Part shown: piece after piece, positions 37,115 through 41,221 of the stretch
How the letters are laid out: each line of letters begins with the position of its first letter
Position numbering within the stretch: the first letter of the stretch is position 1
Assembly (NCBI GenBank): GCA_026415655.1
Contig: JAOAGR010000004.1
Span: 43 to 64,042 of the forward strand
DNA length: 64,000 nucleotides
Reading direction: 5' to 3'
Source: Candidatus Dojkabacteria bacterium
GTDB lineage: Bacteria > Patescibacteriota > Dojkabacteria > JAOAGR01
Notes under the pieces: generated by a model
Database searches by the model: none
The model's input: the letters and a program-made list of their open reading frames with translations, nothing else
Told to the model about the DNA's origin: nothing
Made by a program: the position numbers and the translations under genes

Positions 37115-37939
37115 ATGGTTGTGTCTGCAAAAGAAAAGAGATCATTTTATATTTCTGTCTTAGACAAAGGGTTTGTCAGATTAGTTGACTATATGGGTGA
37201 TGATACAAGTATAGTGCAAGCCGCTAGAGTATCTTATGGTAAAGGCACAAAATCCAAAAGAAAAGATGCTGATTTGATAGATTATCTGATGAGAAATAGG
37301 CACACAAGTCCTTTTGAAATGGTTGAGTTTAAATTTCACGTGAAAGCACCAATATTTGTTGTTAGACAGTGGTTTAGGCATCGAACAGCATCTGTCAATG
37401 AAATCTCAGGTAGATACTCTATCTTAAAAGATGAATTTTATATCCCACAAAAATTTCGCAAACAGAGTAAGACCAACAAGCAAGGTTCAGAAGGTTATGT
37501 CGATGACGACACAAACCAAAAACTTATCAAAATTGTTGACGAAATGACTAGAGAGATTTATGCGAGATATAAATTCTTATTGTCTAAAGGTGTCTCTCGA
37601 GAGTTATCTAGAATAATATTACCACTAAATACCTATACCGAATTTTATTGGAAACAGAATCTTCATAATCTTTTACATTTTATTAAACTTAGGCTTGATT
37701 CACATGCACAAGAAGAAATAAGAGAATACGCTTTAGCCATTGCACAAATCTTAAGAGAATTAGTGCCCGTGACTTGGAAATCATTTACAGAACATATACT
37801 TGAAGGAAAAAATCTATCTAAAACCGAATTGGAAATAATCAGAGAGACCATAAACAAATTTACTTTAGAACAAAATTGTAAATTTAAGAAACTTAAAAAC
37901 ATTAGAAAATCAGAATTTATTAATTGTATAACGAAATAA
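37115..37939 (+). CDS. thyX: Flavin-dependent thymidylate synthase
   Basis: ThyX signature RHRTASVNEISGRYS (RHRxxSxNExSxRY). Confidence 0.85.
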   Translation: MVVSAKEKRSFYISVLDKGFVRLVDYMGDDTSIVQAARVSYGKGTKSKRKDADLIDYLMRNRHTSPFEMVEFKFHVKAPIFVVRQWFRHRTASVNEISGRYSILKDEFYIPQKFRKQSKTNKQGSEGYVDDDTNQKLIKIVDEMTREIYARYKFLLSKGVSRELSRIILPLNTYTEFYWKQNLHNLLHFIKLRLDSHAQEEIREYALAIAQILRELVPVTWKSFTEHILEGKNLSKTELEIIRETINKFTLEQNCKFKKLKNIRKSEFINCITK

Positions 37940-38225
37940 AAACTAGTTAAATAAAAAACATAGTCGATTAAAAATTTAAAATCAATAAACTAAATCTAAT
38001 TATTACACGATTTGAAGTTATCGATTATTCATCAATATTTTACTTTAATCACTATTAAATTTATCTTCATATTATTTTATCTATATGCGAATTCGATTTA
38101 ATGGATGGGCAAAGATCAACTTATTGATCATTCACTTGATACAATTAAAACATTAATGATTTTATTTATTATATACGTATATGTATTGACAAACATAATA
38201 TTTACACTTAAAATATATTTTTATA

Positions 38226-38341
38226 ATGGATCCTGTTTTGAAAAGTTTCTTCTCTTTTGGTTTTTATTTTTTCCGCCCGTGCGGGTAGTGTAGTGATATA
38301 GTAAGCAAACACGCTACCCGCCCAAAAGGGCGGGTTTTTTA
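38226..38341 (+). promoter_or_regulatory. Candidate leader-peptide transcription attenuator: aromatic-rich small ORF (MDPVLKSFFSFGFYFFRPCG*, or the overlapping frame ...EKFLLFWFLFFPPVRVV*) ending inside alternative GC-rich hairpins upstream of the 38357 operon
   Basis: Segment 1 CCGC(38273-76)/GCGG(38281-84); segment 2 GCGGGTAG(38281-88) pairs perfectly with CTACCCGC(38314-21) as antiterminator; segment 3/4 CCCGCCC(38317-23)-aaaa-GGGCGGG(38328-34)+T6 terminator; Phe/Trp codons 38246-38272 immediately precede segment 1. Confidence 0.4.
38317..38341 (+). terminator. Rho-independent terminator (7-bp GC stem, aaaa loop, T-tract)
   Basis: acCCGCCCaaaaGGGCGGGttttttat read directly; GC-rich island in AT-rich DNA. 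Confidence 0.7.
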
Positions 38342-38356
38342 TTTATATAAAGGATT

Positions 38357-39331
38357 ATGAAAAAAATAAAAAACAAAGAAAAAAAGGAAAATAAAAAAAT
38401 GTGCCTAGCAATAGGTGAGGTGGTGATTGATGAAATTATTTTACTTTACGATGAAATAATACTAAGTCAAAAAATAGAAAAAGCTGATCATCAAATTTCT
38501 ATCGGTGGTCCCTCCTGTGCCGGTGCGGTATATTGGCGAAATGCTGGCTTCGATGTGACTTTCATAACAAGTTTAGGTAATGATAGTGACAGTAAATTTA
38601 TTATTGATTATCTAGATTCCAAACGTATTAACTTAATTATCAATAGGTCACTAAAAACTCAGAAAAATCACGTCATAGTAGAGCTTAAAAATGGTCGTCG
38701 CACTATTATTCGAGATAAAATCGAAAAAACCCAAATCAATATCAATAATAAACTGATAGAATCAATAAAATCTGCTGATATAATTTATTTAGATAGACAT
38801 TACAATTACTTGATAGAAACTATACTTAAACACAAAAAATCAAATTCTATTTTAATATTCGACCCATCTACTGACGCATCTGAACTAAATATAAAAATAT
38901 TATCACAAATCGAACATCCAATTGTACCTTGGGAGTTTGTAGTTAATTTTTATAACAATGCAAAATTGTCTCTTTACGAGATGTTAATAGAATTTTACAA
39001 ATATTTAAACAAAACCTATATAGTAACACTCGGTGAATATGGTTCCCTAATAGTCGAAGAAAGTGGTTGTATTCTATTTCCAAGCTATAAAATAGAAAAA
39101 TGTATAGATACCTGTGGCGCTGGTGACATATTCAGAGCATCATTTGGACATTCGTTATTAGAAGGAAAAAACATCTATGAAGCGATAGATTTTGCCAACA
39201 AAGTAGCCGCTTTACAATGTACAAGAATTGGTAATGTAAACGCTATACCGTCTCTAGAGGATATAAAAAATACAAATCTCCAAAAAAATTACTACAATAA
39301 GGAAGAGATTTTATTAAAACTAAAATTATAA
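38357..39331 (+). CDS. pfkB/ribokinase-family carbohydrate kinase (possibly 1-phosphofructokinase-like)
   Basis: C-terminal DTCGAGDIF signature and GG motif near N-terminus. Confidence 0.7.
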   Translation: MKKIKNKEKKENKKMCLAIGEVVIDEIILLYDEIILSQKIEKADHQISIGGPSCAGAVYWRNAGFDVTFITSLGNDSDSKFIIDYLDSKRINLIINRSLKTQKNHVIVELKNGRRTIIRDKIEKTQININNKLIESIKSADIIYLDRHYNYLIETILKHKKSNSILIFDPSTDASELNIKILSQIEHPIVPWEFVVNFYNNAKLSLYEMLIEFYKYLNKTYIVTLGEYGSLIVEESGCILFPSYKIEKCIDTCGAGDIFRASFGHSLLEGKNIYEAIDFANKVAALQCTRIGNVNAIPSLEDIKNTNLQKNYYNKEEILLKLKL

Positions 39332-39337
39332 AAAGAT

Positions 39338-40282
39338 ATGAAAAACAAAAAATTAAAAATAATAGCAGGTCCATGTTCATTCGATCCAAAACATATGGAT
39401 GAAATACTCAGATTTGGACAAATGAAAGTAGGACAGTATAACGCTGTATGGGGAGTAAGAATGGTGGGTCTAAAATCTAGAACTAATTATGAAAATGATC
39501 CAAATAAAATGGGTATAGATCTAGATTATTTTAATGAGATGAGAAAACATATGAATGATCTTTTAGATCTTAACTTCGCATTACAAGAGGAATTCTTTTT
39601 GGTGCCACAGACCTTTCATTATATGTTAGAAATACTCAGATCAACACATCTGGTGATAGCTTTTGAAGTAGTTGATCCTTTGTTACAACTCAGAAAATTT
39701 ATAGATAAACAATTTGACGGTAGACTATTTATCTGGAATCCGGCGGTCAATCAACTAGGTTGGCAAGTGGCTATTATGGGTGAATTTGCCCGCAAATATG
39801 ACTGGTGGATAGGTCTTAAAAACGGTAAATGGTTAGGAGAGAAACTTGAGATCGCAGAATCTGATGATTACCAGGGAGAAACAAGCTTAGAAAAAACCTG
39901 GAAAGGACTGGCTACATATGCTGATCATCCAGGAAAAACCATCTATATCCAAAGAGGAATAGACGTTCCAGAAAAAGGAGATTACAGAAATTATCCTATT
40001 CATAAAACTGCAGCAAGAGTCAAAAAATCTACAGGTGCGATGATGTTTTTTGATCCTAGTCATACATGTGGACCCAAATTGCGAGATAAGATAGTCGAGG
40101 AAACTATAAGTGCAATGCAAATGAAAATCTCTGATGATGAATATCTCTATGACGGAATATTAATCGAGGTGGGTACATCAAAAACTGATACCGATCAGCA
40201 TATATCTTTAGATGATTTTAGGTATTTAATTAAAGAACTAGCAGTATTTAGGGATCTTGATGCTCTACAAGTAGATATATAA
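39338..40282 (+). CDS. DAHP synthase / KDO8P synthase family (class I-beta) aldolase
   Basis: IIAGPCS N-terminal motif, KSRT(N)Y block and DPSHTCG motif matching the DAHPS I-beta/KdsA TIM-barrel family. Confidence 0.55.
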   Translation: MKNKKLKIIAGPCSFDPKHMDEILRFGQMKVGQYNAVWGVRMVGLKSRTNYENDPNKMGIDLDYFNEMRKHMNDLLDLNFALQEEFFLVPQTFHYMLEILRSTHLVIAFEVVDPLLQLRKFIDKQFDGRLFIWNPAVNQLGWQVAIMGEFARKYDWWIGLKNGKWLGEKLEIAESDDYQGETSLEKTWKGLATYADHPGKTIYIQRGIDVPEKGDYRNYPIHKTAARVKKSTGAMMFFDPSHTCGPKLRDKIVEETISAMQMKISDDEYLYDGILIEVGTSKTDTDQHISLDDFRYLIKELAVFRDLDALQVDI

Positions 40283-40285
40283 GTT

Positions 40286-41221
40286 ATGAAAGAAAAACTA
40301 AAAAATATTATAGCAAAGGGAATAATAGCTCTGGATGAAAGTAGTAATACCATGAATAGGCGTCTCGAAGCTCATGATATCGAGCTAAATCTAGAAAACC
40401 GTAATCTATGGCGTAAAATAATTCTGACAATCCCTAATCTCGAAAATTATATAAGCGGAGTTATTTTATATGATGAAACATTAAAATTTTTGTATGAAGA
40501 AGGAATCATTAGTTCATTAATTAAAAAGGGTGTTAGTATTGGAATAAAAGTTGATAAAGGAATCTATGAATATGAAAATAAAAAAAGAATCACCTTAGGT
40601 CTTGATGATTTAGATAGTAGAATGCAAGAATACCACAGTCTAGGCTGCAAGTTTGCAAAATGGAGGGCTGTTTTTTCTTTAGATGATATTGATGATTCTA
40701 ATATAGAATTAAATATTTATCATCTAGCTATTTATTCTATTATTTGTCTAAAATACGGCGTTATTCCGATGGTAGAACCAGAAACTCTAGTTTTAGACGG
40801 TGATCATGATATTAATGATAGTTTTGAGATAATGAAAGGTATTCTTCAAAAACTAGTTCAAATTTTTGATTTAATGAATATTCCTTTTGAAAATATTATC
40901 CTGAAAATAAATTATGTATTACCTAGTAAAACACGGCTTAATAACTACTCGAACGAGGATATCATCACTTCCACTATTATGCTGTTTGAAGAGACTTTGC
41001 CGGATACTCTATCAAACATCGCTTTTCTCTCAGGTGGATTAGATCCTGAAACGGCAACAAATCTTTATAGATTAATAAAACAAAAAGATTCTAGCTACAA
41101 TTTTACTTATTCTTATGGGCGTGCAGTACAGGAAGAGGGATTATCTATTTGGAGAAACGCTAAAGAAAATCGTGTTATACAAAATACAATACAAAATAGA
41201 TTAAAAAAACTACTCAATTAA
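40286..41221 (+). CDS. Class I (eukaryotic-type, Schiff-base) fructose-bisphosphate aldolase
   Basis: GIIALDESSNTMNRRL, ISGVILYDETL, GVSIGIKVDKG (Schiff-base Lys), KFAKWRAV blocks colinear with muscle-type aldolase. Confidence 0.8.
   Translation: MKEKLKNIIAKGIIALDESSNTMNRRLEAHDIELNLENRNLWRKIILTIPNLENYISGVILYDETLKFLYEEGIISSLIKKGVSIGIKVDKGIYEYENKKRITLGLDDLDSRMQEYHSLGCKFAKWRAVFSLDDIDDSNIELNIYHLAIYSIICLKYGVIPMVEPETLVLDGDHDINDSFEIMKGILQKLVQIFDLMNIPFENIILKINYVLPSKTRLNNYSNEDIITSTIMLFEETLPDTLSNIAFLSGGLDPETATNLYRLIKQKDSSYNFTYSYGRAVQEEGLSIWRNAKENRVIQNTIQNRLKKLLN

What the first reader, a model, noticed from the sequence alone, without database searches (positions are those of the whole stretch)
38226..38341. 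Leader-peptide attenuator with Phe/Trp control codons in front of a DAHP-synthase operon
A GC-rich island stands out in the 400-bp AT-rich leader of the pfkB-kinase / DAHP-synthase / class-I-aldolase operon. It contains:
- a canonical intrinsic terminator, CCCGCCC-aaaa-GGGCGGG followed by T6;
- a perfect 8-bp alternative pairing, GCGGGTAG (38281-88) with CTACCCGC (38314-21), which would sequester the terminator's 5' arm and act as an antiterminator;
- an upstream 4-bp GC hairpin, CCGC-ccgt-GCGG, that competes for the antiterminator's 5' strand.

Two overlapping small ORFs run into this structure. Their last ~9 codons are dominated by Phe, with Trp or Tyr (FLLFWFLFF, or SFFSFGFYFF in the 20-aa frame starting at ATG 38226). 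Their stop codons lie inside segment 2.

This geometry matches trp/phe-type ribosome-mediated attenuation. A ribosome stalled at the Phe codons would cover segment 1 and favour the antiterminator, while a ribosome that reaches the stop would favour the terminator. DAHP synthase is the first step of aromatic amino-acid synthesis, so Phe/Trp control is biologically coherent.

Caveat: T-rich DNA makes TTT/TTC codons common in any frame.
Basis: partly seen in the sequence, partly recalled or inferred. Interest (0 to 1): 0.7.

Follow-up and report, generated by a model that had tools for sequence, protein, structure and literature searches.

The report
Phe/Tyr leader-peptide attenuator before DAHP synthase
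A 20-codon mini-gene packed with phenylalanine and tyrosine codons, followed by a switchable RNA terminator, sits in front of an aromatic-amino-acid operon. It is one member of an uncatalogued but widespread family of textbook-style attenuators in Patescibacteria (CPR) and a few other phyla.

Summary
**Observation: confirmed.**
- A near-consensus promoter lies at 38186-38214.
- A 20-aa ORF, MDPVLKSFFSFGFYFFRPCG*, runs 38226-38288 with 6 Phe and 1 Tyr in 9 codons.
- Four GC-rich segments can pair 1:2 and 3:4 (terminator plus U6), or 2:3 (antiterminator).

**Interpretation: supported by comparative evidence.**
- About 57 of 80 homologous loci carry the same unit just upstream of the DAHPS-like gene or of pfkB-DAHPS-like. 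Most are Patescibacteria; Elusimicrobium and a Limisphaerales MAG also have it.
- The unit is promoter, ATG-started short ORF with an F/Y(/W) run such as FYFYFYF, then a four-segment attenuator.
- An in-frame ATG is present in 44/44 leaders, against 1/44 and 4/44 in the other frames.
- C falls at codon position 3 in 77 of 83 cases.
- The stems co-vary: score 0.344 versus 0.131 in shuffles.
- A covariance model built without the window's clade hits the window only at 38250-38343 (45.5 bits, E=1.4e-5).

- The control codons are Phe and Tyr, not Trp.
- Only the 20-aa frame is conserved.
- The "DAHP synthase" has no Pfam hit. Fold and operon context support the call.

**Novelty.** The mechanism is textbook, with the closest analogues being C. 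glutamicum aroR-aroF and E. coli pheL. No Rfam 15 family reaches its gathering score on these leaders, and I found no paper describing them. No experimental data exist.

The parts
38186..38214 (+). Sigma-70-type promoter TTGACA-17 nt-TAAAAT. The -10 box ends 11 nt before the leader ATG.
   Evidence: 11 of 12 matches. An equivalent near-consensus promoter ends 6-11 nt before the leader ATG in nearly all of 43 homologous leaders. No SD-like motif precedes the ATG. A leaderless or very short 5' UTR is inferred, not shown.
38226..38288 (+). Leader ORF, 20 codons plus stop: MDPVLKSFFSFGFYFFRPCG*
   Evidence: The frame is conserved in L001 (MVMYNLVKNFFFFGFYFFRPCG*) with synonymous TTC>TTT and GGT>GGA changes. 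In-frame ATG in 44/44 family members versus 1/44 and 4/44 in the other frames.
38247..38273 (+). Regulatory codon run TTC TTC TCT TTT GGT TTT TAT TTT TTC (F F S F G F Y F F): 6 Phe and 1 Tyr
   Evidence: Across 40 distinct runs the codon counts are TTT 138, TAT 42, TTC 39, TAC 32, TGG 12. C occurs 0/6/77 times at codon positions 1/2/3.
38272..38278 (+). Segment 1 (UCCGCCC). It pairs with segment 2 as the anti-antiterminator, or with segment 4 in the nested MFE. It starts inside the last Phe codon.
   Evidence: 1:2 hairpin -5.8 kcal/mol. The 1:4 helix columns in A4 are 88.7% paired, with compensatory changes in 4 of 5 pairs.
38281..38294 (+). Segment 2 (GCGGGUAGUGUAGU), the 5' strand of the antiterminator. 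It contains the leader stop codon UAG at 38286-88.
   Evidence: No substitution among WIN, L001 and L003.
38295..38308 (+). Apical loop of the antiterminator
   Evidence: Within the attenuator (segment 1 through the U-tract), all 5 substitutions among the three close relatives fall in this loop; a few more lie just before the pfkB start.
38309..38323 (+). Segment 3 (ACACGCUACCCGCCC), the 3' strand of the antiterminator. It overlaps the terminator 5' arm ACCCGCCC at 38316-23.
   Evidence: 2:3 helix -20.3 kcal/mol; all 8 bases of the terminator 5' arm pair upstream when the 3' arm is withheld.
38328..38340 (+). Segment 4 (GGGCGGGU), the terminator 3' arm, plus the U6 tract
   Evidence: Terminator hairpin -17.1 kcal/mol.
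38357..39331 (+). First regulated gene: PfkB-family sugar kinase. Substrate unknown.
   Evidence: Pfam PF00294, E=2.8e-27. Below every NCBIfam equivalog cutoff. pfkB lies directly upstream of the DAHPS-like gene in about 18 of 80 loci.
39338..40282 (+). Second regulated gene: divergent DAH7P-synthase-like enzyme with a type I-beta fold
   Evidence: No Pfam hit. AF2 model pLDDT 91. Best PDB folds are DAH7PS 4grs, 5j6f, 1zco and 1vs1. GPCS, DPSH, E and D motifs align to 1zco. The family is followed by shikimate, chorismate mutase, PDH and PDT genes in at least 40 loci.
40286..41221 (+). Third regulated gene: class I fructose-bisphosphate aldolase
   Evidence: Pfam PF00274, E=9e-71. NCBIfam FrucBisAld_I 274.9 bits, above the cutoff of 250.

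Best explanation
This is a ribosome-mediated (leader-peptide) transcription attenuator that senses charged tRNA-Phe and tRNA-Tyr. It controls the pfkB / DAH7P-synthase-like / aldolase operon.

**Proposed sequence of events.**
1. Transcription starts at the promoter at 38186-38214, a few nucleotides before the ATG at 38226. The 20-codon leader is translated from a leaderless or nearly leaderless mRNA while RNA polymerase moves on.
2. When Phe-tRNA or Tyr-tRNA is scarce, the ribosome stalls in the last aromatic codons (TTT 38262, TAT 38265, TTT 38268).
   - The stalled ribosome covers segment 1, leaving segment 2 free.
   - Segment 2 pairs with segment 3 (-20 kcal/mol), which removes the terminator's 5' arm.
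   - Polymerase then reads through into pfkB.
3. When both amino acids are plentiful, the ribosome runs on to the UAG inside segment 2 and covers segments 1 and 2. Segments 3 and 4 then form the terminator.
4. With no ribosome present, either 1:2+3:4 or the nested 1:4+2:3 forms. Both put a GC helix against the U-tract, which also gives termination.

**What is shown and what is inferred.**
- Shown: the sequence anatomy, the alternative pairings, their conservation and covariation, codon-level constraint, and the link to aromatic-pathway genes.
- Inferred: translation of the leader, leaderless initiation, the ribosome footprint geometry, and actual premature termination with a response to Phe/Tyr.
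For: **In the window.**
- Anatomy and energies.
- The masking model gives an antiterminator for stalls at 38262-38268 and the full terminator for a ribosome at 38271 or at the stop.
- Rfam's own Phe_leader is the best, sub-threshold hit: 33.1 bits, E=0.0011.

**In close relatives.**
- Between the window and L001 the only alignable intergenic DNA is 38241-38360, at 89% identity.
- Within the attenuator, all stems are invariant and all 5 differences lie in the apical loop.
- The ORF frame is kept despite an unalignable N-terminal part.

**Across the family.**
- Small ORFs with F/Y runs plus a terminator lie upstream of the DAHPS-like gene or of pfkB in about 40-50 loci by script. The covariance model finds them in 57 loci. 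They occur even in genomes of 45-50% GC.
- In-frame ATG: 44/44 versus 1/44 and 4/44.
- C at codon positions 1/2/3: 0/6/77.
- The terminator 5' arm pairs upstream in 30/40 leaders, versus 13.8 expected.
- Cognate versus non-cognate duplex energy: -15.9 versus -11.3 kcal/mol.
- On the model-fitted alignment, 78% of cells are paired versus 62% in shuffles. 18/19 pairs show double changes. Covariation is 0.344 versus 0.131 (0/500 shuffles), and slid controls give 0.04-0.10.
- Model R1, built without the window's clade, hits the window once, at 38250-38343 (45.5 bits, E=1.4e-5).

**Biological coherence.**
- The regulated gene family heads operons encoding chorismate mutase, prephenate dehydrogenase (Tyr) and prephenate dehydratase (Phe) together with the shikimate enzymes.
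- There is experimental precedent for a Phe-Tyr-Phe leader controlling a DAHP synthase: C. glutamicum aroR-aroF (PMC11802643, PMC4046766).
Against: - No transcript, ribosome-profiling or genetic data exist for any member.
- In this window the 1:2 hairpin is weak (4-5 bp, -5.8 kcal/mol). The equilibrium MFE is nested 1:4+2:3 rather than 1:2+3:4. Default termination therefore depends on co-transcriptional folding, or on the 1:4 helix acting as the terminator stem.
- There is no Shine-Dalgarno sequence. The ATG lies 11 nt after the -10 box (mode 7-9 nt in the family), so initiation on a 0-5-nt 5' UTR is assumed.
- Phe-rich open frames are common in this AT-rich DNA.
- No other shikimate or Phe/Tyr gene lies in the 64-kb window or in L001. 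It is not shown that this organism completes the pathway.
- The covariation counts come from an alignment fitted to the structure. On the MAFFT alignment of one subfamily the stems are simply invariant, with no covariation signal.
Confidence: 0.85

Rival explanations
1. This is an ordinary intrinsic terminator or insulator between thyX and the pfkB operon, and a chance T-rich ORF happens to run into it. There is no amino-acid sensing.
For: Phe-rich open windows are frequent in this 30%-GC sequence, at about 10 other places. The terminator is canonical.
Against: - A near-consensus promoter lies between thyX and the terminator.
- In L001 another gene is inserted after thyX, yet the element stays with pfkB.
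- The ORF, its ATG, the aromatic run and the antiterminator recur in dozens of unrelated loci, with wobble-only variation and co-varying stems.
Confidence: 0.03
2. Attenuation occurs, but the sensor is not the ribosome. A protein or small ligand binds the U-rich UUU-UAY repeat region or the 2:3 element (TRAP/PyrR-like, or a riboswitch/T-box), and the ORF is incidental.
For: The UUUUAY repeats are a conserved RNA motif in their own right. Terminator/antiterminator switches are also used by protein- and ligand-dependent systems.
Against: - No T-box or riboswitch model scores in the region, even at E<=10.
- The start codon is conserved in one frame only: 44/44 versus 1/44 and 4/44.
- Substitutions in the run are confined to the wobble position or to F<->Y changes.
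- The stop codon is always placed in or just after segment 2.
- The apical loop of 2:3 is the least conserved part, which is unlike a ligand pocket.
Confidence: 0.05
3. The promoter-to-terminator unit is a free-standing gene for a ~115-nt small RNA and/or a functional 20-aa hydrophobic peptide that acts in trans. Its position before pfkB is secondary.
For: It has its own promoter and terminator. Attenuator-derived RNAs and leader peptides with trans functions are documented in Sinorhizobium (rnTrpL/peTrpL: PMC6614838, PMC7298713).
Against: - Outside the aromatic run the peptides are not conserved.
- The element is always immediately upstream of, and co-oriented with, DAHPS-like or pfkB genes.
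- The antiterminator would be pointless for a stand-alone sRNA.
- This rival does not exclude the main explanation: a trans role could be added on top of it.
Confidence: 0.04

Closest known systems
Corynebacterium glutamicum aroR-aroF attenuator (Neshat et al. 2014, as summarised in PMC11802643; first noted in PMC4046766)
   Same: A short leader peptide with a Phe-Tyr-Phe motif lies upstream of a DAHP-synthase operon. Read-through increases on ribosome stalling at the aromatic codons. It has the same logic and the same kind of target as the element here.
   Different: It comes from a different phylum (Actinobacteria) and regulates a conventional aroF. There is no detectable sequence relationship, since no Rfam family covers either. 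The run is only 3 aromatic codons, against 5-9 here. Whether aroR is itself translated from a leaderless transcript I could not verify in the texts read.
E. coli pheL-pheA leader (Rfam RF01859 Phe_leader) and the pheM-pheST leader
   Same: A Phe-codon-rich leader peptide (from my own knowledge: 7 Phe of 15 codons in pheL), a 4-segment terminator/antiterminator, and a stop codon near the first structured segments. RF01859 is the best Rfam hit on the window.
   Different: The window scores 33.1 bits against a gathering score of 55, so it is not a member. The target here is DAHP synthase plus kinase plus aldolase, not chorismate mutase-prephenate dehydratase or PheRS. Tyr codons are an integral part of the run. 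There is no SD and the 5' UTR is very short.
E. coli/Salmonella trpL attenuator (Yanofsky model; Rfam RF00513)
   Same: This is the archetype of the 1:2 / 2:3 / 3:4 logic, and the geometry matches: regulatory codons sit just upstream of segment 1.
   Different: Only 22 bits against a gathering score of 41. The regulatory codons are Trp and the target is the trp operon.
Leaderless short-ORF attenuators of Actinobacteria (for example mycobacterial polycysteine sORFs, bioRxiv 10.1101/834739)
   Same: The sensing ORF begins at or next to the transcription start and has no Shine-Dalgarno sequence. A codon run senses amino-acid supply.
   Different: Those sense Cys and come from a different phylum. 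I read only the abstract and did not compare their mechanistic details. Leaderless initiation here is inferred only from promoter spacing.

Membership tests
Ribosome-mediated leader-peptide transcription attenuators (mechanistic class) | Short ORF in the 5' leader with a run of codons for the amino acid(s) made by the regulated pathway | tested here: met
   The 20-aa ORF has 6 Phe and 1 Tyr in 9 codons. The downstream gene family heads Phe/Tyr/shikimate operons.
Ribosome-mediated leader-peptide transcription attenuators (mechanistic class) | Intrinsic terminator between the leader ORF and the first structural gene | tested here: met
   An 8-bp stem with 7 GC pairs, a 4-nt loop and T6 at 38316-38340, 16 nt before the pfkB ATG.
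Ribosome-mediated leader-peptide transcription attenuators (mechanistic class) | Mutually exclusive antiterminator that uses the terminator's 5' arm | tested here: met
   2:3 helix, 13 bp, -20.3 kcal/mol. Present in 30/40 family members versus 13.8 expected. Cognate-specific. Compensatory changes in all 12 pairs of this helix (the alignment is fitted to the model).
Ribosome-mediated leader-peptide transcription attenuators (mechanistic class) | Upstream segment 1 that competes for segment 2 and lies within the footprint of a ribosome stalled at the regulatory codons, with the stop codon placed so that a terminating ribosome blocks segment 2 | tested here: met
   Segment 1 starts in the last Phe codon. 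The UAG lies inside segment 2. The masking model switches as expected. The 1:2 helix is weak here (-5.8 kcal/mol).
Ribosome-mediated leader-peptide transcription attenuators (mechanistic class) | The leader is translated, and premature termination responds to aminoacyl-tRNA supply in vivo | not testable with these tools
   No transcriptome, Term-seq or ribosome-profiling data are available for these uncultured organisms.
Rfam RF01859 Phe_leader (enterobacterial pheA leader) | Covariance-model score at or above the curated gathering score (55 bits) | tested here: not met
   33.1 bits, E=0.0011, at 38237-38343. No Rfam family reaches gathering on the window or on 11 related loci.
T-box leader / riboswitch | Match to a T-box or riboswitch covariance model | tested here: not met
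   None are listed, even at E<=10, for 37900-38450.
The 'FYF' aromatic leader family defined here (model R1, built from 14 leaders of another clade) | Significant match to a model of sequence plus nested 1:4/2:3 structure built without the window's clade, located directly upstream of the DAHPS-like operon | tested here: met
   Window 38250-38343, 45.5 bits, E=1.4e-5, the only hit in 64 kb. 57 loci are hit, and all hits with E<0.05 are on the gene strand.
Type I-beta DAH7P synthase (for the regulated gene 39338-40282) | Pfam PF00793 or NCBIfam DAHPS model at or above the curated cutoff | tested here: not met
   No Pfam hit. NCBIfam PRK08673 scores 19.2 bits against a cutoff of 335. Many homologues carry a precomputed PF00793 hit.
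Type I-beta DAH7P synthase (for the regulated gene 39338-40282) | DAH7PS/KDO8PS TIM-barrel fold with the metal and PEP-site motifs (GPCS, KxRT, DPSH, E, D) | tested here: met
   AF2 pLDDT 91. Foldseek's top hits are DAH7PS at E~1e-10, ahead of KDO8PS. The motifs are invariant in the family and align to 1zco. The identity of the ligand residues in 1zco is from my own knowledge.
Type I-beta DAH7P synthase (for the regulated gene 39338-40282) | Catalyses PEP + E4P -> DAH7P | not testable with these tools
   Only genomic context supports this: the gene is followed by DHQ synthase and the rest of the pathway in at least 40 loci.

The most novel reading that the evidence does not exclude
The attenuator may mark an unrecognised aromatic-amino-acid regulon in Patescibacteria. 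It would comprise three parts.
- A DAH7P synthase family too divergent for Pfam to recognise in this protein.
- A dedicated precursor-supply pair: a PfkB kinase plus a class I or class II aldolase. One possible route is sedoheptulose-7-P -> sedoheptulose-1,7-P2 -> erythrose-4-P + DHAP.
- A leaderless Phe/Tyr-sensing mini-ORF that switches all of it.

This would mean some ultra-small CPR bacteria both synthesise Phe and Tyr and monitor their tRNA charging through coupled transcription and translation.
Probability: 0.3. Interest if true: 0.65.

Novelty: new member of a known kind. Interest (0 to 1): 0.5.

Why it matters
**Regulation in CPR.** Leader-peptide attenuation has been known for fifty years, but it is documented mainly in Proteobacteria and Actinobacteria.
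- This is a large, well-delimited family in Patescibacteria/CPR, with members in Elusimicrobia and Verrucomicrobiota. Almost nothing is known about gene regulation in CPR.
- The family implies tight transcription-translation coupling in these organisms and probably leaderless initiation.

**Functional annotation.**
- Phe/Tyr codons in the leader, together with operon context, identify a protein family that is mostly annotated 'hypothetical' as the DAH7P synthase of CPR aromatic operons.
- The same evidence ties a PfkB kinase and an aldolase to that pathway.

**Practical use.**
- Model R1 could seed an Rfam family.
- A cultured carrier, Elusimicrobium posterum Dip510, makes the prediction testable.

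Tried and rejected
- **MAFFT plus RNAalifold on one leader subfamily (A3).** It recovered only the terminator. The GC stems are invariant there, so it gave no covariation signal. Covariation became visible only across subfamilies.
- **MAFFT on the mixed subfamilies (A2).** The alignment was out of structural register and was not used.
- **Metagenome scan for close relatives of the window's DAHPS-like protein.** It returned nothing closer than 50% identity. Within-clade evidence therefore rests on three sequences: the window, L001/L002/L004 (one genome), and L003.
- **Search for other aromatic-pathway genes in the window, L001 and L003.** tblastn found none. Whether the source organism has the rest of the pathway stays open, because I could not fetch more of its genome.
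- **Remnant of the L001 214-aa gene in the window's spacer.** None found.
- **The Trp-containing frame (FLLFWFLFF).** Rejected, because that frame lacks a conserved start in relatives.
- **TRAP-like protein binding to UAY repeats.** Considered and judged unlikely (see rivals).
- **Literature searches linking Patescibacteria/CPR with leader peptides, attenuation or DAHP synthase.** They returned nothing relevant. The library lacks most subscription-journal papers, so this is not proof of absence.
Full report
**1. What is in the window**

- After thyX (37115-37939) comes an AT-rich spacer.
- Next is a near-consensus promoter, TTGACA-17-TAAAAT, at 38186-38214. It matches 11 of 12 positions.
- Next is an ATG at 38226 opening a 20-codon ORF: M D P V L K S F F S F G F Y F F R P C G, with the stop at 38286-88.
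- Next is a GC-rich island.
- The pfkB start follows at 38357.

The island holds four segments.
- Segment 1 is UCCGCCC (38272-78).
- Segment 2 is GCGGGUAGUGUAGU (38281-94).
- Segment 3 is ACACGCUACCCGCCC (38309-23).
- Segment 4 is GGGCGGGU (38328-35), followed by U6.

- The 3:4 terminator is -17.1 kcal/mol.
- The 2:3 antiterminator is -20.3.
- The 1:2 hairpin is -5.8.
- The MFE of the whole leader is -34.5 to -35 kcal/mol (z=-3.1). It is a nested 1:4+2:3 structure that also puts a GC helix against the U-tract.

The terminator scan finds only this site in 37800-38500, against 0.2 expected. Both GC motifs are unique in the window.

Open 10-codon windows with at least 6 Phe occur at about ten other places in this 30%-GC sequence. 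The window alone cannot settle the matter.

**2. What the operon is**

Gene 1 is a PfkB-family sugar kinase. Gene 3 is a class I fructose-bisphosphate aldolase.

It scores only 19 bits against an NCBIfam DAHPS model. The call nevertheless holds on other evidence.
- The family is large (467 hits) and very conserved. It is found mostly in Patescibacteria, and many members carry a precomputed PF00793 hit.
- An AlphaFold model (pLDDT 91) matches type I-beta DAH7P synthases best: 4grs, 5j6f, 1zco and 1vs1, at E~1e-10. These rank ahead of KDO8P synthases.
- The GPCS, DPSH, E and D motifs align with those of the P. furiosus enzyme.
- In at least 40 of 80 genomic loci the gene is directly followed by aromatic-pathway genes. 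These are chorismate mutase, prephenate dehydrogenase, prephenate dehydratase, DHQ synthase, EPSP synthase, shikimate kinase, shikimate dehydrogenase, dehydroquinase and chorismate synthase.

pfkB sits directly upstream of the gene in about 18 loci, some of which also carry aro genes. One locus (L037) has a class II aldolase where the window has a class I.

No other aro gene lies in the window or in L001.

**3. Close relatives**

Two relatives have a DAHPS-like protein 80% and 88% identical to the window's. One is L001, from the MAG GCA_964503755.1, labelled Candidatus Saccharibacteria. The other is L003. Both keep the element.
- The only alignable intergenic DNA between the window and L001 is 38241-38360, at 89% identity. 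That span runs from the aromatic run through the attenuator.
- Within the attenuator all four segments are identical in the three sequences. All five substitutions fall in the apical loop of 2:3.
- L001's leader reads MVMYNLVKNFFFFGFYFFRPCG*.
  - Its N-terminus is unrelated but it keeps an ATG and the same frame.
  - It shows synonymous TTC>TTT and GGT>GGA changes, and an S>F change that adds a Phe.
- In L001 an extra 214-aa gene follows thyX. The leader stays with pfkB, behind its own promoter (TGGACA-17-TATAAT). It is therefore not simply thyX's terminator.

**4. The wider family**

A scan of one genome per species with the DAHPS-like alignment returned 80 loci. The upstream regions share the same unit.
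- *Short ORFs.* About 50 loci hold an ATG-started ORF of 15-42 codons, with at least 5 F/Y/W in 7 codons.
  - Examples are FYFYFYF, FYFFFYF, FFFFYFF and FGFYFF.
  - A GC-rich terminator follows, just before the DAHPS-like gene or pfkB.
  - This includes genomes of 45-50% GC.
- *Reading frame.* The leader frame has an upstream in-frame ATG in 44/44 cases. The other two frames have one in 1/44 and 4/44.
- *Codon constraint.* In 40 distinct runs the codons are TTT 138, TAT 42, TTC 39, TAC 32 and TGG 12. C occurs 0, 6 and 77 times at codon positions 1, 2 and 3.
  - The frame was chosen by its F/Y content, so this count is partly circular.
  - The ATG test is independent of that choice.
- *Antiterminator.* With the terminator's 3' arm withheld, its 5' arm pairs with a segment 9-16 nt past the run in 30/40 leaders. 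Dinucleotide shuffles give 13.8.
- *Co-variation by lineage.* The segment sequences differ between lineages but change together.
  - Examples are CCCGCC/GGCGGG, CCUCCC/GGGAGG, CCGAUCC/GGAUCGG and CCCCUU/AAGGGG.
  - Cognate duplexes average -15.9 kcal/mol, against -11.3 for non-cognate ones.
  - 28 of 40 cognates fall in the best 10%.
- *Covariance model.* Model R1 was built from 14 leaders of a different clade, using the nested 1:4+2:3 structure.
  - It finds the window's element as its only hit in 64 kb: 38250-38343, 45.5 bits, E=1.4e-5.
  - It finds leaders in 57 loci, and all hits with E<0.05 are on the gene strand.
- *Covariation counts.* On the resulting alignment 78.2% of cells pair, against 61.8% in shuffles.
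  - 18 of 19 pairs show compensatory changes.
  - The covariation score is 0.344, against 0.131 (0/500 shuffles) and 0.04-0.10 for slid partners.
  - That alignment is fitted to the structure.
  - On a MAFFT alignment of one subfamily the stems are simply invariant.
- *Promoters.* Nearly all leaders have a near-consensus promoter whose -10 box ends 6-11 nt before the ATG. The modes are 7 and 9 nt, and the window has 11. None has an SD motif.
  - This suggests leaderless or nearly leaderless translation, which is inferred and not shown.
- *Lineages without the leader.* Cytophagales loci lack it.
- *Other phyla with the leader.* Elusimicrobium posterum Dip510 (a complete genome) and a Limisphaerales MAG have it.
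- *Additional finds.* Tandem leaders occur in L061 and L073. Further subfamilies, such as MLCKVWFFNYFFTP, appear in metagenome contigs.

**5. Mechanism**

The geometry is that of classic attenuation.
- Segment 1 begins inside the last Phe codon.
- Segment 2 begins at the edge of the footprint of a ribosome stalled on the last aromatic codons.
- The stop codon lies inside segment 2.

I ran a simple masking model in which the mRNA is protected to 12 nt past the A-site codon.
- A stall at TTT 38262, TAT 38265 or TTT 38268 gives the antiterminator. Only 2-4 of the 8 terminator pairs remain.
- A ribosome at TTC 38271, or at the stop, gives the full terminator.
- With segment 1 uncovered, the nested 1:4+2:3 structure forms, or kinetically 1:2+3:4. 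Either puts a helix against the U-tract.

Scarce Phe-tRNA or Tyr-tRNA would therefore give read-through into pfkB, DAH7PS and the aldolase. Plenty of both would give termination.

The footprint size, the kinetic order of folding and the terminator competence of the 1:4 helix are assumptions.

**6. Comparison with what is known**

- The best Rfam match is the enterobacterial Phe_leader, but at 33.1 bits it is below its gathering score of 55. Trp_leader scores 22 against 41.
- No Rfam 15 family reaches its gathering score on the window or on 11 related loci. No T-box or riboswitch model scores at all.
- The closest functional analogue is C. glutamicum aroR-aroF.
  - It is a Phe-Tyr-Phe leader peptide in front of a DAHP synthase.
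  - It responds to Phe limitation (PMC11802643, citing Neshat et al. 2014; PMC4046766; PMC3890552).
- Leaderless sensing ORFs are known in mycobacteria (bioRxiv 10.1101/834739).
- Literature searches found no paper linking Patescibacteria/CPR with leader-peptide attenuation or DAHP synthase. The library is incomplete, so this is not proof of absence.

**7. Verdict**

- The control codons are Phe and Tyr, not Trp.
- Only the 20-aa frame is conserved.
- The DAHP synthase is a divergent family identified by fold and context.

The mechanism is a known kind. The family, its phylogenetic home and its probable leaderless design are new as far as I could establish. I put confidence in the attenuator reading at about 0.85.

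Interest is moderate (0.5). A specialist would not be surprised by the mechanism. The value lies elsewhere.
- It is a clean, widespread regulatory family in a phylum whose regulation is unexplored.
- It assigns a function to a protein family that is mostly annotated as hypothetical.
- It points to a possible kinase-plus-aldolase precursor-supply module.

Noticed in passing
window 39338-40282 (and L005-L112): The 314-aa protein belongs to a large, highly conserved family (mean column identity 55%; invariant GPCS, KSRT, DPSH, E and D motifs). Pfam does not detect it in this protein, and most sources call it 'hypothetical'. Its fold and operon context say it is a type I-beta-like DAH7P synthase. 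It is common in Patescibacteria and also occurs in Cytophagales, Elusimicrobia and Limisphaerales.
   Followed up: yes
window 38357-39331 and 40286-41221; L037 4235-6894; L073 2677-9900: A PfkB-family kinase and an aldolase recur next to the DAH7PS-like gene under the same leader. The aldolase is class I here and class II in L037. In L073 pfkB heads a complete shikimate operon. A possible role is precursor supply (for example S7P -> SBP -> E4P + DHAP, or F6P -> FBP). The kinase's nearest solved relative is a ribokinase (1vm7, E=6e-23), so its substrate is unknown.
   Followed up: partly
L073 2423-2655; L061 5617-5971: Two complete leaders lie in tandem before the same operon, each with its own F/Y-run ORF and terminator. 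In L073 the peptides are MSSTHGSNNFFFFYFTRNAG and MKKNSVRQFNFYFYPT. In L061 they are MTVLTVNKFYFYFTRLKGGEIC and MNNLLPKHSLFYFFYYPSGGRYPQ.
   Followed up: partly
all leaders, e.g. L033 5810-5845; window 38186-38226: The leader ATG sits 6-11 nt after the -10 box of a near-consensus TTGACA-16/17-TAnAAT promoter, with no Shine-Dalgarno sequence. This suggests the sensing ORFs are translated from leaderless or nearly leaderless mRNAs.
   Followed up: partly
L074 5780-5945 (Elusimicrobium posterum Dip510, NZ_CP152277.1): An organism with a complete genome and a strain name carries the family. It has a promoter, the leader MQKNLNKNFSFYFYFLMATPLG, a 9-bp antiterminator (GCCAUUGGG with CCCGGUGGC), and a terminator with a 10-nt loop. 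It lies upstream of DAHPS-like, DHQS, EPSPS, SK, SDH, DHQase and CS. It is a candidate experimental system.
   Followed up: partly
L029 3609-3706; L035 4220-5694; L043 3130-4553: Leader-like model hits also precede other genes. In L029 a weak hit (29.7 bits) precedes a PLP-dependent (PALP) enzyme. In L035 and L043 a 440-453-aa FAD-binding protein is followed by chorismate mutase and the DAHPS-like gene. These may be additional regulon members.
   Followed up: partly
L001 8206-8850 versus window 37940-38185: The closest genome has a 214-aa ORF (no Pfam hit) between thyX and the leader. The window has only 245 nt of AT-rich spacer there, with no detectable remnant of that gene.
   Followed up: yes
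L088, L090, L091, L097-L103, L110, L111 (metagenome contigs): A further leader subfamily includes a Trp codon and has short peptides (MLCKVWFFNYFFTP, MNLVWFFSYFFFTLISRAG, MTFQVWFFSYFFTP). Its terminator lies about 180-220 nt upstream of the DAHPS-like gene (the leader stop codon lies 240-290 nt upstream), farther than in the other subfamilies. What fills the gap was not examined.
   Followed up: no
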